The notes beneath the pieces were generated by a model. The model worked only from the letters and a program-made list of their open reading frames with translations, did not search any database and was not told where the DNA came from. Shown one piece after another: positions 59,887 through 64,000 of a stretch of 64,000 nt of DNA (the stretch's first letter is position 1; each line of letters starts with the position of its first letter). Location of the stretch: the NCBI GenBank assembly GCA_025062155.1, contig JANXAM010000008.1:11786-75785 (forward strand), written 5' to 3'. The stretch is from Gloeomargarita sp. SKYB120 (lineage in GTDB: Bacteria; Cyanobacteriota; Cyanobacteriia; Gloeomargaritales; Gloeomargaritaceae). Position numbers and translations under genes: made by a program.

Positions 59887-60297
59887 TTATCGCCACAACC
59901 CTACCCCTACACCCAGGCTCAACACGCCCACCAACAAAAAGGCTAGCGTGACCCCCCACAAATCCCGAAAATAGGCCAGCCGGGCTACCTGTGGTCGCTG
60001 GGGATGATAGAGCACTGGTACCGTATCACCGACTCTGCACCCCAAATTCCCCACTTGGGACGTAAAACGCACAAGCTGGCGGTTAGGTAACACAAATTCC
60101 ACGACCGGATAACAGGCGTCGTAGGGCACCCTTCCCACTCGCTGGCGACGGTATTCTAAATCAATCACCCGTCCTGACGTTTTCACGGCCACTTGCAGCA
60201 GTTGGTACGTCCGTAATACTTCCCACAGTCCCCAACCTGTGAACCCTGCGCCCATCAGTAAAGCCAAAATGCTGCCAAGCAGGCGCTGACTCGTCAT
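59887..60297 (-). CDS. DUF3592-like two-TM membrane protein
   Basis: TM - G.V - YPVVEF - GDTVPVLYHPQRPQ.AR - TM architecture. Confidence 0.75.
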   Translation of the reverse strand: MTSQRLLGSILALLMGAGFTGWGLWEVLRTYQLLQVAVKTSGRVIDLEYRRQRVGRVPYDACYPVVEFVLPNRQLVRFTSQVGNLGCRVGDTVPVLYHPQRPQVARLAYFRDLWGVTLAFLLVGVLSLGVGVGLWR

Positions 60298-60354
60298 CCC
60301 TTCCCCAAAACTGCCTATAATGCTGGGCAAGTCCTGTTACCTAATTTACTACCG

Positions 60355-60549
60355 ATGGGAGAAGCCAAACGACGCCAAGCCCAGGCGCAACCATCCCCCA
60401 AGGCGAACCAGGTGGCGCTTTGGTGGCAACAATTTCTCAAATGGACAACGCGGGGGACCTGGGTCGGGATTGGGTTGCTGGTGATCATCTGGGTCACGGT
60501 ACGGTTTATTGGGCCAGGTTTTGGGTGGTGGCAACTAGCGGGTGAATAG
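60355..60549 (+). CDS. DUF2839 family protein
   Basis: MGEAKRR...WTTRGTWVGIG..W..VRFIGP.FGWW. Confidence 0.85.
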   Translation: MGEAKRRQAQAQPSPKANQVALWWQQFLKWTTRGTWVGIGLLVIIWVTVRFIGPGFGWWQLAGE

Positions 60550-60789
60550 ATTGACAAAGACGTTGGTGGGCAGCGTTGCGCTCCTGGTGGCCCAACCAGT
60601 CTATGGCGGCCCCAACCCCACCGTACGTTTAGCTGACACACCGACGCCTGGCCCCTGGTTTGCTGCGCAACTCATTGCCCAGGAAATGAATACGACGCCG
60701 GGACGACCGTTGCGTATCTACGACCGACACATCGCCCATATGTTTGCCGTCACGGAAGCGTTGTGTCGCCGGTTTCCCCAGGTGCAGGG

Positions 60790-62567
60790 TTGATAACTGT
60801 TTAATGTTTTATGTACGCTTATATGGGCATCTAGCCATGAAATTGAGTGAGTGGTGCCAGCGGTTGTGCGTCTGACATTGAGCTACCAAGCGCGGATTGC
60901 CACCAGCTCAGAACAGCATCAGGTGCTGTCTGCCTACGCGGAATTATTTGGCCGGGTGGAGCGGTCTCTCTTTGCCGCGGTGGTTGCTGGGCGGGACAAA
61001 AACCAGATAAAACGGGAATTTCTGCAACGGTTTGGTATCACTGCTAGACAATTCAACAGTGCGCGTGTGGAGCTAGAAGGACGCCTACGGGCTGTCAAGG
61101 AACGTCAAGCAACACAAGTTGAACAGTTGCCGCAGAAGATACGTCAAGCACAACAGATTATTAAGAAGGAAAAACGTCGGTTTGTCTTGCACCAGAAGCA
61201 ACGCCGCTTGGCTAGGTTGCAAAGTCAACTGGCGCGTCTGGAAGCCGACAGGCGCAGTGGCAAGATACGACTGTGTTTCGGTTCTAATTCCTTATTTCGC
61301 CAGCAGTTTGCTCTGGCGGCCAACGGTTATCGCTCCCATGCAGAATGGTTAGCCGACTGGCGGTTGAGCCGCTCTCGACAGTTTTTCGTACTTGGTAGTC
61401 AGGATGAGACAGCCGGTAATGTGTCATGCCAAGCCGTACCGGAAGCTGACGGGATGTTCACGCTTTATCTGCGCGTGCCCGATGCACTCGTGCAGCGGTT
61501 TGCTAACTGTTTGTCTCCCGGGCTGCAACAAAGGGGGAAGAAAGTCTACCTGAAGCTAACGGGTATTCGGTTTGCGTATGGCCAGGACCAAATTGTACAA
61601 GCGTTGCAGGGAGTGAAGGTACGCACCACGACCTGTCGTAGCAAAGCCACGACCAAGCGTATTGGCACACCCGTCAACTATCGTTTCATACGGGATGAGC
61701 GTGGTTGGCGTGTGATGGTCAGTGTTGAACCGATGCCACCAGAGCCGGTGACCAACCGAGCGGCTGGTGCTATTGGTGTGGACATCAATGCTGACCACTT
61801 AGCCGTAACCGAAATGGACCGGTACGGGAATTGGGTGAGCTCCTGGCGGTTGGACCTAGACCTGGATGGGAAAACCGCTGGTCAGAAGCAGGCGGTGATT
61901 TTGGAAGCCTGCGCCCAGGTTGCGCGGTTAGCAGCAGAGAAGGGGAAGCCTTTGGTTGTAGAAGAGCTCGACTTTCAACGGAAGCGAGCACAACTAGAGA
62001 GTGAATCGCCCCGCCGTTGCCGCCAGTTGTCGAGTTTTGCTTACCGTAAGATTCTCACGGGTCTCAAGTCCGCTGCGTTGAGAGCGGGGGTGGAAGTGTG
62101 TGAAGTCAACCCAGCCTACAGCACTGTCATTGGTGCGGTTAATTACGCCAGGAAACTTGGCATTTCACCCCATCTTGCCGCGGCGTTGGTGTTGGCTAGA
62201 AGAGTTTTGCGCCTGAGTGAACGACCCGTTGGTCAGGGGACAGTCATTGTTCCTTGGCGTGGCGGTCATGTCACCTTCTCTCTACCTGCAAGGAATCGAG
62301 AGAAGCATGTATGGTCGTTTTGGCGGGAAGTTGCTCGGGCGCAAGCGGCGGTCGTACCGCAGTCACTGGGTCGTGCGAGTCTCCGGCTACCACCGGTTGG
62401 AGATGACCGACCACCTGGTCATCTGTTAGCCGACACATGGCCTGAGTGCAGCAGTGACTTGCCGGTGGGAGTCCGGCACGCTCCGCTCCTGCAGGTGGCG
62501 GGAGAAGTTGTTGGGAGTGCCGTTTGCCCAGCAGCCTGTGGATAATTGTCCATAGTTTTAGGAACGG
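60790..62567 (+). mobile_element. non-autonomous IS607-like element with tnpA stub and tnpB
   Basis: Follows host GG (60788-60789) and ends ...TTTTAGGAACGG; GGTTG is present at both junctions; MKLSEW stub at 60837. Confidence 0.8.
60851..62545 (+). CDS. tnpB: TnpB-related protein (long IS200/IS605/IS607 accessory type, no Zn finger)
   Basis: YQARI...YAELFGRVERSLF, LCFGS, RuvC-I GVDINAD, RuvC-II VVEELDF, VNPAYS, PHLAAALVLARR; true start uncertain. Confidence 0.85.
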   Translation: MVPAVVRLTLSYQARIATSSEQHQVLSAYAELFGRVERSLFAAVVAGRDKNQIKREFLQRFGITARQFNSARVELEGRLRAVKERQATQVEQLPQKIRQAQQIIKKEKRRFVLHQKQRRLARLQSQLARLEADRRSGKIRLCFGSNSLFRQQFALAANGYRSHAEWLADWRLSRSRQFFVLGSQDETAGNVSCQAVPEADGMFTLYLRVPDALVQRFANCLSPGLQQRGKKVYLKLTGIRFAYGQDQIVQALQGVKVRTTTCRSKATTKRIGTPVNYRFIRDERGWRVMVSVEPMPPEPVTNRAAGAIGVDINADHLAVTEMDRYGNWVSSWRLDLDLDGKTAGQKQAVILEACAQVARLAAEKGKPLVVEELDFQRKRAQLESESPRRCRQLSSFAYRKILTGLKSAALRAGVEVCEVNPAYSTVIGAVNYARKLGISPHLAAALVLARRVLRLSERPVGQGTVIVPWRGGHVTFSLPARNREKHVWSFWREVARAQAAVVPQSLGRASLRLPPVGDDRPPGHLLADTWPECSSDLPVGVRHAPLLQVAGEVVGSAVCPAACG

Positions 62568-62587
62568 TTGGCGGTGGGACTACCGAG
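62330..62587 (+). ncRNA. predicted omegaRNA of the second TnpB (scaffold plus flank-derived guide)
   Basis: The low-complexity TnpB tail reads through GCCGGTGGGAGTCCGGCACG...; guide inferred as the host sequence 3' of 62567. Confidence 0.4.
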
Positions 62588-63230
62588 CAGGTAGCGGCGC
62601 AATTCCGATGGGTGAATTTCGCATCCCCTGCGAAATGGCCGCTGCCATGAAACGTCAATTCGAGCCGAGTTCAACCCAAACGATTGTCATCCAAGTCGGT
62701 CGTCAATCCCAGAATTTGTCGATTCAGCCCTTAAACATCACAGGTGAGCGAGTCTTGGCCTGGTTGGATGTCGCAGAAACATTTCGCCCGTGGGTTCATG
62801 GCCGGGGCCAAATCCAGCAAATCATGGGTACCCTGCGACGGGTGAAAATTCCTGTTCTTTTGCCGGATGAACCCTTGCGTCGGCATGGTGTGCAGTTGTT
62901 TTTCGTAAGTACCGTGCCCAGCCCCAATGAGTACCTTATTGAGCTGTTCACATTCCCAGGTTGCCGAGTGGGAGCTTGTACCGTTGGTTCCTTCAGTGGT
63001 CGGTGGGGCGGCAAGTTGGCTATCCCTAAAAAGGAATGGCCCCGCGATACCCATCAAATGGTTCGTTTAGCCAAGGGTATCCAGGGACAATTTATTAAGA
63101 CGTGCGGAGCCTACTGCACTAGTTTTGTACAGTGGGTCAGCAATGGCGTGTTGTACGAAATCAGCGCCCGAGATGCCGACCGAGATAGCCTTGTGCAACT
63201 TGCCAATCAGGCCATCCAGGCCGGTCCGCG

Positions 63231-63464
63231 TTAACCTAACGCCTTTAACAGGCCAATTAATCCCTTGCCAGTGAGCAGCTCCAGAATAATCAGCGATACA
63301 AACCCAATCATGGCAAGCCGCCCGTTCAATCGTTCGGCGTATTCCGTAAACCCCACCCGCGACACGTCATCCACATACATTCGCGGTTCAATCGCAAAAT
63401 TGTTCAACCGCCCGCCACTTTCTACCGTGTAGCCCCGAGGCCGTGTCATTTCTTGCTGCGTCAT
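63231..63464 (-). CDS. high-light inducible protein (Hli/SCP)
   Basis: AERLNGRLAMIGF chlorophyll-binding helix; N-terminal RLNNFAIEP. Confidence 0.93.
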   Translation of the reverse strand: MTQQEMTRPRGYTVESGGRLNNFAIEPRMYVDDVSRVGFTEYAERLNGRLAMIGFVSLIILELLTGKGLIGLLKALG

Positions 63465-63508
63465 GCTGACTCTCCTAAAACTTTACGTTATTGTACTATT
63501 CTAATCCG

Positions 63509-63526
63509 AATGTTAACTTTTGTAAA
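63509..63526 (-). promoter_or_regulatory. HLR1 (RpaB-binding) element in the hli promoter
   Basis: Minus strand TTTACAAA-AG-TTAACATT, one mismatch to (G/T)TTACA(T/A)(T/A)-N2-repeat; upstream of TAGAAT/TACAAT -10-like hexamers. Confidence 0.7.
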
Positions 63527-63749
63527 GGGTTGGGTTGCAACCGGCGCTGTAGAGTCAGAAAAACTGAGGACGCGGTGAAGATAATAGGCCTATAGCTATG
63601 ACACAGGCAGCAACCAGAGCCCTGGATGTTTCCACGTTACTTGCTTCCCAAGGGCGATAACCTAAATGTTTTCTGCTATAGATAACAGGGCTTAGAACCA
63701 GCAACGGAGCCGCTCCCTGTGACCCGAGGGATGACAATGATATACGACG

Positions 63750-63783
63750 AAAAAAAAAGCCAGTGGGTTGTTCACCCACTAGC
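63750..63783 (-). terminator. rho-independent terminator of dnaK
   Basis: Minus strand GCTAGTGGGT-GAACA-ACCCACTGGC followed by nine T. Confidence 0.85.
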
Positions 63784-63814
63784 TGTTGGATTCATGGCCT
63801 ACGGGACTGGGGGG

Positions 63815-64000
63815 TTATTTCCCCTCGGAAAAGTCGGCGTCAATCACGTCCCCTTCGCTCGAACTGCGGGTTGAGCCGCTGCTAGCGCCGCTGTTGCCGC
63901 TCGTACTGGCGGCCTGTTGATAGAGGTTGGTGCTGACCGAGTAGAGGGTTTGCTCCAGGTCGTTTTTCAGGGTCCTGATGCGGTCGTAGTTTTCCTGGTT
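63815..64000 (-). CDS. dnaK: chaperone DnaK, C-terminal end (5' part outside the window)
   Basis: ENYDRIRTLKNDLEQTLYSVSTNLYQQA + Ser/Gly linker + GDVIDADFSEGK*. Confidence 0.8.
   Translation of the reverse strand, partial: NQENYDRIRTLKNDLEQTLYSVSTNLYQQAASTSGNSGASSGSTRSSSEGDVIDADFSEGK

What the first reader, a model, noticed from the sequence alone, without database searches (positions are those of the whole stretch)
60542..63234. TnpB element splits a secreted-protein gene; precise excision restores a 304-aa ORF
Seen: left ...GTG CAG GG|TTGATAAC and right ...GGAACGG|T TGG CGG TGG. Removing 60790-62567 (1778 bp) gives VQGWRWDY in frame, 915 nt in total. Established: IS607 serine recombinases insert and excise at GG without target duplication. 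Inference: a recent knockout that TnpA supplied in trans could revert, acting as a potential switch, while TnpB guided by the right flank (TTGGCGGTGGGACTACCGAG) would cut restored alleles next to an ...AGGG TAM.
Basis: partly seen in the sequence, partly recalled or inferred. Interest (0 to 1): 0.7.

Follow-up and report, generated by a model that had tools for sequence, protein, structure and literature searches.

The report
IS607-type TnpB element splits gene
A 1.8-kb mobile element that carries only an RNA-guided-nuclease-like gene (TnpB) and no transposase has cleanly split a conserved exported-protein gene in a hot-spring cyanobacterium; this is an ordinary insertion of a known element type, and nothing shows that it flips back.

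Summary
Removing 60790-62567 (1778 bp) joins 60542-60789 to 62568-63234 into a 915-nt, 304-codon frame. That frame aligns end to end with intact 306-310-aa orthologues, and the junction FPQVQGWRWDYRAG is invariant. A ~91%-identical sister lineage in the same hot-spring metagenomes carries the predicted empty site, CAGGGTTGGCGGTGGGAC.

The insert is a tnpA-less derivative of an IS607-family element. Its ends are conserved across phyla, and 66 of 82 related loci carry a serine recombinase gene just upstream of the TnpB gene. Left flanks end in GGG and the right end in CGG, with no duplication beyond the GG core.

The 564-aa protein has a Cas12/TnpB fold, conserved D311, E371 and H441, and no zinc finger. 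These features match the published RIIIr-4 TnpB clade. The last 175 nt fold into a strongly covarying RNA that ends at the right boundary, as a guide RNA scaffold would.

The "switch" idea is not supported. No tnpA lies in the window or beside four other copies in the same MAG. Copies differ by 12-16%. The window's strain shows only the filled site in four runs.

Verdict: a new member of a known kind, of modest interest.

The parts
60355..60549 (+). Upstream DUF2839 gene (64 aa). Its end overlaps the GTG start of the split gene, and the same gene order is kept next to the intact orthologue.
   Evidence: ORF list. PF10999 appears on the matching gene in L001 and L084.
60542..60789 (+). 5' part of the split gene: codons 1-82 plus the first two bases of Gly83. 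The N-terminus looks like a signal peptide. In the interrupted state the frame ends at a TGA made by the element's first bases.
   Evidence: NCBI's call for the identical locus starts at 60551 (80 aa).
60785..60789 (+). Target-side motif CAGGG directly 5' of the left end. It holds the GG crossover dinucleotide and is the likely TAM (GGG).
   Evidence: The left flanks of the copies end in GGG with one exception (L058, GAG). The same holds for L002, L003 and L086 and for three further copies in metagenome contigs. The published IS607 target and TAM is TGGG.
60790..62567 (+). The inserted element (1778 bp): a non-autonomous, tnpA-less IS607-family derivative, in the same orientation as the host gene.
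   Evidence: Boundaries come from alignment with other copies, the empty site in L001 and in metagenome contigs, and single matches of both ends in the window.
60790..60850 (+). Left end (61 bp), TTGATAACTGTTTAATG... It contains the AAC-N-GTT motif that recurs in related left ends and in the right-end loop.
   Evidence: That the motif is a TnpA binding site is inference.
60851..62545 (+). TnpB-like ORF, 564 aa (559 aa from the GTG at 60866 in NCBI's call). It has a Cas12/TnpB fold, a RuvC domain with D311, E371 and H441, and no zinc finger.
   Evidence: NCBIfam guided_TnpB 35 bits and TIGR01766 32.4 bits. Alignments A4 and A6. AF2 pLDDT 79 and Foldseek hits to Cas12e/k/m/f/g, Fanzor2 and RuvC. 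dN/dS 0.19-0.26 among copies.
61781..61783 (+). Codon of D311 (RuvC-I, motif GVDINADH).
   Evidence: Invariant in 58 sequences; coordinates.
61961..61963 (+). Codon of E371 (RuvC-II, motif VVEELDF).
   Evidence: Invariant in 58 sequences; coordinates.
62171..62173 (+). Codon of H441 (RuvC-III position, S-x-H-x-A-A-A...A-R-R). It replaces the usual Asp.
   Evidence: Invariant in 58 sequences. This matches the RIIIr-4 description in PMC10691335.
62393..62567 (+). Structured RNA (omegaRNA-like scaffold) that overlaps the 3' end of the ORF and ends at the right boundary. Helix 2 lies at about 62461-62477 and helix 3 at about 62508-62534. A Gloeomargarita-specific hairpin at 62481-62504 is also present.
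   Evidence: Covariance model hit of 80.5 bits, E 6e-24, the only hit in the window. Covariation: 92% of cells paired against 29-46% for slid controls, with 128 and 300 double changes.
62546..62567 (+). Right-end core TTGTCCATAGTTTTAGGAACGG, ending in the GG crossover dinucleotide. It is nearly identical in Verrucomicrobia, Proteobacteria, Nitrospirota and Cyanobacteria.
62568..62587 (+). Guide-equivalent flank TTGGCGGTGGGACTACCGAG. Conservation between copies stops exactly here.
   Evidence: That it serves as a guide is inferred from the published TnpB mechanism.
62568..63234 (+). 3' part of the split gene: the last base of Gly83 through the stop codon, 222 codons.

Best explanation
A non-autonomous IS607-family insertion sequence sits inside a conserved Gloeomargaritales gene for a probably exported protein. 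It consists of a 61-bp left end, a TnpB gene of the Asp-to-His, zinc-finger-less kind, and an overlapping guide-RNA scaffold that runs to the right end. It encodes no transposase.

It entered at a 5'-CAGGG|TTGG-3' site by serine-recombinase crossover at the GG dinucleotide. This leaves no scar, so the host sequence is intact on both sides and exact removal would restore the gene. As it stands the gene is knocked out: the 5' fragment stops at a TGA created by the element, and the 3' fragment has no signal peptide.

Shown here: the split, the empty site in a sister lineage, the family relationship and end structure, purifying selection on TnpB, and the covarying RNA.

Inferred from published IS607/TnpB work: (1) movement needs a TnpA serine recombinase supplied in trans; (2) TnpB with its RNA, whose guide is the right flank, cuts any restored GGG-plus-TTGGCGG... 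joint, so the element is copied back from a sister chromosome. The insertion would then be held in place rather than toggled.
For: - The split and restoration are confirmed.
- The empty site is seen in L001 and in contigs of runs X2-X4.
- The same filled locus, 100% identical over 7135 nt, is in NCBI MAG GCA_025054555.1 and in contigs of four runs, so it is not an assembly artefact.
- Ends are conserved across phyla. Left flanks end in GGG and the right end in CGG.
- 66 of 82 related loci have a serine recombinase directly upstream; the three upstream ORFs scanned (L061, L020, L010) all hit Pfam Resolvase, and the L061 one also MerR.
- The TnpB fold and the D-E-H motif without a zinc finger match clade RIIIr-4 of PMC10691335.
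- dN/dS is 0.19-0.26 among copies, with lower dS and higher dN in the last 90 codons, where the RNA overlaps.
- The RNA covaries, with many G-U pairs on the + strand.
- Published IS607 behaviour: scarless excision at GG, a TGGG target and TAM, 40-bp LE and 60-bp RE sufficient, and mini-elements mobilised in trans.
Against: - No tnpA was found, so present-day mobility is unproven.
- No RNA data exist for this organism, so expression of TnpB and the RNA is unshown.
- The His variant of RuvC-III has, as far as the searchable literature shows, not been tested biochemically, so nuclease activity is an assumption.
- Scores against curated TnpB models are weak: 35 bits against a cut-off of 100, and no Pfam hit.
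- Assignment to RIIIr-4 rests on matching features, not on placement in that paper's tree.
Confidence: 0.85

Rival explanations
1. Reversible switch. A TnpA supplied in trans excises the element at appreciable frequency, so the population toggles between a broken and an intact gene.
For: Excision by IS607 TnpA is scarless and can be efficient, about 5% overnight in E. coli for a Clostridial element. The element keeps a left end of 61 bp and a full right end, more than the 40/60 bp reported to suffice. Both gene halves are free of stops and frameshifts.
Against: No tnpA lies in the window or next to the other copies L002, L003 and L086 of the same MAG. All left-end-to-tnpB contig variants in the community lack it. 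Copies differ by 12-16%. Contigs that match the window exactly show only the filled site in four runs from two studies. Every empty-site contig carries the sister lineage's SNPs. No RE-LE circle junction was seen. By the published model, TnpB removes restored alleles.
Confidence: 0.08
2. The TnpB-like protein is nuclease-dead and acts as an RNA-guided DNA binder or repressor (TldR- or Cas12m-like) rather than a homing nuclease.
For: The third RuvC Asp is replaced and the zinc finger is lost. The closest PDB folds include Cas12k and Cas12m, which do not cut DNA.
Against: D311, E371 and H441 are invariant in 58 sequences across phyla. The gene stays inside multicopy elements with conserved ends, next to tnpA in 66 of 82 loci, unlike exapted TldR genes. 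PMC10691335 argues that the conserved rearrangement implies retained activity. His occupies catalytic positions in other RNase H-fold nucleases (own knowledge).
Confidence: 0.1
3. The element belongs to IS200/IS605: a Y1 transposase, a single-strand intermediate, and insertion 3' of a penta-nucleotide target.
For: NCBI names the protein 'IS200/IS605 family accessory protein TnpB-related'. A conserved motif lies 5' of the left end, as in IS605.
Against: The upstream gene in relatives is a serine recombinase, not a Y1 transposase. GG is present at both junctions. The conserved hairpins covary on the RNA strand and sit at the right end only.
Confidence: 0.02

Closest known systems
IS607-family insertion sequences (e.g. 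IS607 of Helicobacter pylori; the CboIStron studied in bioRxiv 10.1101/2023.11.20.567912)
   Same: Relatives encode a serine recombinase TnpA with a MerR-like HTH upstream of tnpB. The crossover is at GG, there is no target duplication, the donor joint is scarless, and the G-rich target (xGGG) resembles the published TGGG. The guide RNA is encoded at the right end.
   Different: This copy and its four sister copies lack tnpA. There is no group I intron (Rfam found nothing). The TnpB belongs to a different, rearranged clade.
TnpB major clade RIIIr-4 (Altae-Tran et al., PNAS 2023, PMC10691335)
   Same: The RuvC-III Asp is replaced by His, the C4 zinc finger is absent, and the rearrangement is conserved over a large clade, which suggests retained activity.
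   Different: Membership is judged here from these features only, not by placement in their tree. The paper highlights MazE/RHH-associated and viral members. Here the association is with serine recombinases, and the proteins are long (about 540-564 aa).
ISDra2 / IS605 TnpB-omegaRNA homing nuclease
   Same: The protein has a RuvC domain, and a structured RNA overlaps the 3' end of tnpB and ends at the right boundary. The flank serves as guide and the TAM equals the transposase's target motif.
   Different: Different transposase chemistry (Y1, single-stranded DNA), a canonical D-E-D active site with a zinc finger, and a smaller protein (about 400 aa).
TldR / Cas12m / Cas12k (RNA-guided binders derived from TnpB/Cas12)
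   Same: An altered RuvC and a similar fold.
   Different: Those are immobilised, exapted genes. This one is in a multicopy transposon and keeps D, E and H invariant.

Membership tests
IS607 family (this copy as a non-autonomous derivative) | Encodes a serine recombinase TnpA (MerR-like HTH plus resolvase catalytic domain) | tested here: not met
   No match in the window or in L002, L003 or L086. The feature is met in 66 of 82 related loci with the same ends. The copy is therefore filed as a tnpA-less derivative, not an autonomous IS607.
IS607 family (this copy as a non-autonomous derivative) | Ends homologous to those of tnpA-bearing members | tested here: met
   The right-end core TTGTCCATAGTTTTAGGAACGG and the left end TTGATAACTGTT... 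align with the ends of tnpA-bearing elements in Verrucomicrobia, Proteobacteria and Chlamydiota.
IS607 family (this copy as a non-autonomous derivative) | Insertion at a GG core dinucleotide, with the right end ending in GG and no target-site duplication | tested here: met
   CAGGG|LE...RE-CGG|TTGG. Other copies share only GG (L002) or GGT (L003) between their two junctions. The 5-bp GGTTG identity here is specific to this site.
IS607 family (this copy as a non-autonomous derivative) | Scarless donor joint and a circular dsDNA intermediate | tested here: inconclusive
   The natural empty site in a sister lineage equals the predicted joint. No excision product or circle junction of the window's strain was seen in contig-level data.
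TnpB (OMEGA) RNA-guided nuclease, clade RIIIr-4 | Cas12/TnpB fold with a RuvC domain | tested here: met
   Foldseek probability 1.0 to Cas12e/k/m/f/g, Fanzor2 and RuvC. AF2 pLDDT 79.
TnpB (OMEGA) RNA-guided nuclease, clade RIIIr-4 | Passes curated sequence-model thresholds | tested here: inconclusive
   NF040570 guided_TnpB scores 35.4 bits against a cut-off of 100. TIGR01766 scores 32.4 against 32. There is no Pfam hit.
TnpB (OMEGA) RNA-guided nuclease, clade RIIIr-4 | RuvC-III Asp replaced by His; no C4 zinc finger | tested here: met
   H441 is invariant. No CxxC pairs lie between AYS/T and H441. The description is in PMC10691335.
TnpB (OMEGA) RNA-guided nuclease, clade RIIIr-4 | Structured guide RNA at the 3' end with a sharp scaffold-guide boundary | tested here: met
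   Covariation. One model hit per locus, ending at the right boundary. Conservation drops after CGG.
TnpB (OMEGA) RNA-guided nuclease, clade RIIIr-4 | RNA-guided, TAM-dependent DNA cleavage | not testable with these tools
   This needs a biochemical or plasmid-interference assay.
IS200/IS605 family | Y1 (HUH) TnpA and subterminal DNA hairpins at both ends | tested here: not met
   Relatives carry a serine recombinase. Hairpins are found only at the right end and carry G-U pairs on one strand.
IStron (IS607 or IS605 with a group I intron) | Group I intron that splices the element out of the host mRNA | tested here: not met
   No Rfam match at E <= 1 in 60000-64000. The left end is only 61 bp.

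The most novel reading that the evidence does not exclude
The tnpA-less subfamily occupies at least seven different sites in Gloeomargarita, and no serine recombinase was seen in any copy or community contig. The most novel reading still open is that it spreads without a cognate TnpA. One route would be RNA-guided cutting by the D-E-H TnpB followed by repair from the element. Another would be that the rearranged RuvC domain itself acts as the recombinase. The simpler explanation is a tnpA copy that was not assembled or has since been lost.
Probability: 0.04. Interest if true: 0.75.

Novelty: new member of a known kind. Interest (0 to 1): 0.3.

Why it matters
As a gene disruption it is ordinary. 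Its use is as a clean natural example with several features together:
- The filled site and the exact empty site coexist in sister lineages of the same hot springs.
- The element is reduced to its ends plus TnpB and the RNA.
- The TnpB belongs to a large clade with an Asp-to-His active site and no zinc finger. That clade has been described only by computation, and I found no biochemical test of it.

The conserved ends, the GGG flank and the covarying RNA define what is needed to test that clade: protein, scaffold, guide start and a candidate TAM. The source is a thermophilic cyanobacterium. The interrupted gene is a lineage-specific, probably exported protein of unknown function in the group closest to plastids. 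The natural knockout shows that it is dispensable in situ.

Tried and rejected
I therefore could not make a genome-wide count of copies or search the window's whole genome for tnpA.
- Pfam gave no hit for any of the three proteins.
- A profile search of PDB sequences gave no TnpB hit, only a weak Cas12m match at E 0.37.
- Rfam found nothing at E <= 1, which rules out a group I intron (IStron) or a known omegaRNA family.
- No public RNA run holds the region, so transcription is untested.
- The metagenome-contig scan with the window's TnpB returned only distant relatives (33-50% identity) and no Gloeomargarita-type copy with tnpA.
- Reads were available only as Logan contigs, which drop rare variants. 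The absence of same-strain empty sites and of circle junctions is therefore weak evidence.
- A contig that diverges at 60921 looked like a possible tnpA-bearing variant. The break lies 70 nt inside tnpB and the upstream letters do not encode the conserved N-terminus, so I read it as a truncated or rearranged copy.
- The structure of the intact orthologue came out at low confidence (pLDDT 67). Foldseek gave only weak PsbP-like matches (E 0.02), which are not enough to name a function.
- The promoter scan found nothing useful in the left end.
Full report
**Observation.** The sequence at the stated coordinates is as described. The left junction is ...CAG GTG CAG GG|TTGATAAC, with the element starting at 60790. 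The right junction is ...TTTTAGGAACGG|T TGG CGG TGG, with the element ending at 62567. Joining 60542-60789 to 62568-63234 gives 915 nt, a single open frame of 304 codons plus a stop.

A search with the joined protein found intact orthologues of 306-310 aa in Gloeomargaritales. These include Gloeomargarita lithophora GlitD10_0756, Synechococcus sp. C9 and several metagenome proteins, at 60-81% identity over 96-99% of the length. In the alignment the junction region FPQVQGWRWDYRAG is conserved without a gap, and G83, W86 and Y88 are invariant.

The DNA of the closest orthologue (L001) reads CCCCAGGTACAGGGTTGGCGGTGGGACTACC. That is exactly the site predicted by removing the insert. The two halves are therefore one gene, and the insertion is scarless.

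GGTTG occurs at both junctions (60788-60792 and 62566-62570), so the register of the cut is ambiguous within those five bases. Other copies share only GG or GGT between their two junctions.

**It is real, not an assembly artefact.** The same filled locus, 100% identical over 7135 nt, is in NCBI MAG GCA_025054555.1, Gloeomargarita sp. SKYG98. In four hot-spring metagenome runs from two studies (2021 and 2023), contigs with no mismatches run from each flank into the element.

The same runs hold a second lineage, about 91% identical and up to 690x deep against about 29x for the window's strain. Its contigs read ...CAGGGTTG|GCGGTGGGACTACCGGGC..., which is the empty site. Every empty-site contig carries that lineage's SNPs.

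I saw no empty site of the window's own strain and no RE-LE circle junction. Only assembler contigs could be laid, and those drop rare variants.

**What the insert is.** The 564-aa ORF (60851-62545) has no Pfam hit. It matches NCBIfam guided_TnpB and TIGR01766 only weakly, over residues 353-433. It nevertheless belongs to a large family: more than 1600 homologues of about 540 aa in many phyla.

Fetching 80 related loci from genomes showed what the family is. In Verrucomicrobia, Beta- and Gammaproteobacteria, Chlamydiota, Nitrospirota and others, the gene is preceded on the same strand by an ORF of 186-204 aa. That ORF hits Pfam Resolvase, and in the L061 copy a MerR-type HTH as well, which makes it the IS607-type serine recombinase TnpA. 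It is present in 66 of 82 loci.

Multicopy genomes define the ends. The left end begins (T/C)T(G/A)..AAC(A/T)G(T/C)T. The right end finishes ...TTGTC(C/T)ATGGTTTTAGGA(A/G)CGG and is almost identical across phyla.

The window's element has these same ends. Only 61 bp separate the left boundary from the TnpB start, so tnpA is missing. The same holds for the other copies in the same MAG: L002, L003 and two rearranged copies in L086. It also holds for every left-end variant seen in the metagenome contigs.

**Target site.** The base triplet before the left end is GGG in all compared copies but one (L058, GAG). For Gloeomargarita the left flanks are CAGGG, CAGGGG, CAGGGG, AACGGG, CCAGGG, GAAGGG and CAACGGG. 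The right end is always CGG, followed by a pyrimidine.

This is the GG-core pattern of IS607. It is close to the 5'-TGGG-3' target and TAM measured for a Clostridial IS607 element. For that element, excision was scarless, 40 bp of left end and 60 bp of right end sufficed, and a mini-element without tnpA or tnpB was mobilised in trans (bioRxiv 10.1101/2023.11.20.567912).

The third G may also let TnpB tell a vacant site (GGG plus target) from its own right junction (CGG plus target). This is inference.

**The TnpB.** Alignments of 22 and 58 family members show invariant D311 (GVDINADH), E371 (VVEELDF) and H441 (S-x-H-x-A-A-A..A-R-R). H441 sits where canonical TnpB has D-x-N-A-A-x-N-I. There are no cysteine pairs between the AYT/S motif and H441, so there is no zinc finger.

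An AlphaFold2 model has mean pLDDT 79, with residues 462-488 and 502-564 below pLDDT 50. Its best PDB matches are Cas12e, Cas12k, Cas12m, Cas12f, Cas12g and Fanzor2, plus RuvC resolvases for the nuclease domain, all at probability 1.0.

These features match major clade RIIIr-4 of Altae-Tran et al. (PNAS 2023, PMC10691335). That clade has the RuvC-III aspartate replaced by histidine and the C4 zinc finger lost, and it is predicted to remain active because the change is conserved. I found no paper that tests this clade experimentally. My assignment rests on features, not on a tree.

Among the Gloeomargarita copies dN/dS is 0.19-0.26, so the protein is under purifying selection.

**The RNA.** The last 175 nt of 25 elements fold into four helices, with 92.7% of cells paired against 34-46% when partners are slid. 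There are 128 double-sided changes against 16-30 for the slid controls, and no shuffle out of 500 reaches the observed values.

A covariance model built from them finds one hit per locus in 45 further sources, all on the TnpB strand. One fragment in L086 is the only second hit. Every hit not cut off by a contig end finishes at the right boundary. The window has a single hit, 62393-62567, at 80.5 bits. On that larger alignment the covariation is as strong: 91.8% paired, 300 double changes, and many U-G pairs that would be C-A on the other strand.

In the last 90 codons of TnpB, dS falls and dN rises, as expected where an RNA constraint overlaps a loosely constrained protein tail. Sequence conservation between copies stops immediately after ...GGAACGG, which marks the scaffold-guide boundary.

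Gloeomargarita copies lack helix 4 and have an extra hairpin at 62481-62504.

**How it most likely works.**

*Shown:* the element is an IS607-family derivative reduced to its ends, TnpB and the RNA. It is inserted at GG in the same orientation as the host gene. The host gene is split at Gly83 with no other damage.

*Inferred from the published mechanism:* insertion and any excision need a TnpA serine recombinase from elsewhere. If excision happened, the restored CAGGG|TTGGCGG... joint would be the cognate target of the element's own TnpB-RNA complex. It would be cut and repaired from a filled sister chromosome. Cyanobacteria usually carry several chromosome copies (own knowledge).

The system therefore stabilises the knockout rather than toggling it.

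**Against a switch.**
- No tnpA lies in the window or beside any of the five copies examined.
- Copies differ by 12-16% in DNA, so this is not a recent burst.
- The window's strain shows only the filled state across samples and years.

'Recent' can only be argued from the absence of stops or frameshifts in either half. The overall dN/dS of 0.17 against the orthologue mostly reflects divergence before the insertion.

**The host gene.** It follows a DUF2839 gene in both the filled and the intact loci. The N-terminus (basic residues, a hydrophobic stretch, then small residues) looks like a Sec signal peptide in all orthologues, and five cysteines are invariant. This is a reading by eye, because no signal-peptide predictor was available. 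There is no Pfam domain. A low-confidence model of the orthologue gave only weak PsbP-like matches. Its function is unknown.

**Novelty.** The element type, the TnpB clade, scarless IS607 excision and TnpB-mediated retention are all published. This is a new member of a known kind. It is well documented because the exact empty site exists in a co-occurring sister lineage, and because the ends, candidate TAM and RNA scaffold of an untested TnpB clade can be read directly from the comparison.

Noticed in passing
L003:2860-3000 (the same variant appears in metagenome contigs, window 60820-60851): One copy in the same MAG has a tandem duplication of about 45 bp inside the left end (...TATGGGCATCTAGCCATGAAATT... 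twice). Contigs of all four runs show the same joint, with the letters CGCGCTTATATACA between the repeats.
   Followed up: partly
L086:820-3992: A 4.6-kb contig of the same MAG holds a rearranged remnant followed by a full TnpB copy that lacks the first ~70 bp of the left end. The remnant consists of a left end plus ~170 nt, an inverted internal fragment and a right-end fragment. This may be a nested or decayed insertion, or a misassembly, since 8 N are present.
   Followed up: partly
window 60640-60792 and 62677-62718: The sister lineage with the intact gene is far more abundant than the window's strain in two runs: about 690x against 29x in X3 and about 144x against 8x in X4. It is rarer in X1 and X2.
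   Followed up: no
window 63231-63464 (- strand): A 77-aa ORF converges on the split gene's 3' end. It has one hydrophobic helix and a weak Psb34 (PF26394) annotation in the identical NCBI locus, so it is a small photosystem-associated or HLIP-like protein.
   Followed up: no
P0001 / window 60542-63234 (joined): The intact orthologue's model (pLDDT 67) gives only weak Foldseek matches to PsbP-family lumenal proteins (E 0.02-0.1, probability up to 0.8). This hints that the interrupted gene may encode a PsbP-like-fold exported protein. The evidence is too weak to rely on.
   Followed up: partly
window 60796-60803 and 62517-62526; related loci, e.g. L010 left end and right-end helix 3 loop: A near-palindromic AAC-N-GTT motif recurs in the left end (AACTGTT or AACAGTT) and in the conserved loop of RNA helix 3 at the right end (ACTGTTCG). 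It may be the binding site of the TnpA HTH, overlapping the RNA scaffold.
   Followed up: no
window 62481-62504: Gloeomargarita copies carry an extra hairpin (CTCCGCTCCTGCAGGTGGCGGGAG) between helices 2 and 3 of the RNA and lack helix 4, which is present in most other members.
   Followed up: partly
L010, L022, L030 versus L013, L028, L029 (Verrucomicrobia bacterium LP2A): Within one genome some copies have a ~160-bp deletion that truncates tnpA (only residues 1-123 match) while TnpB stays intact. This shows loss of tnpA in progress in this family.
   Followed up: partly
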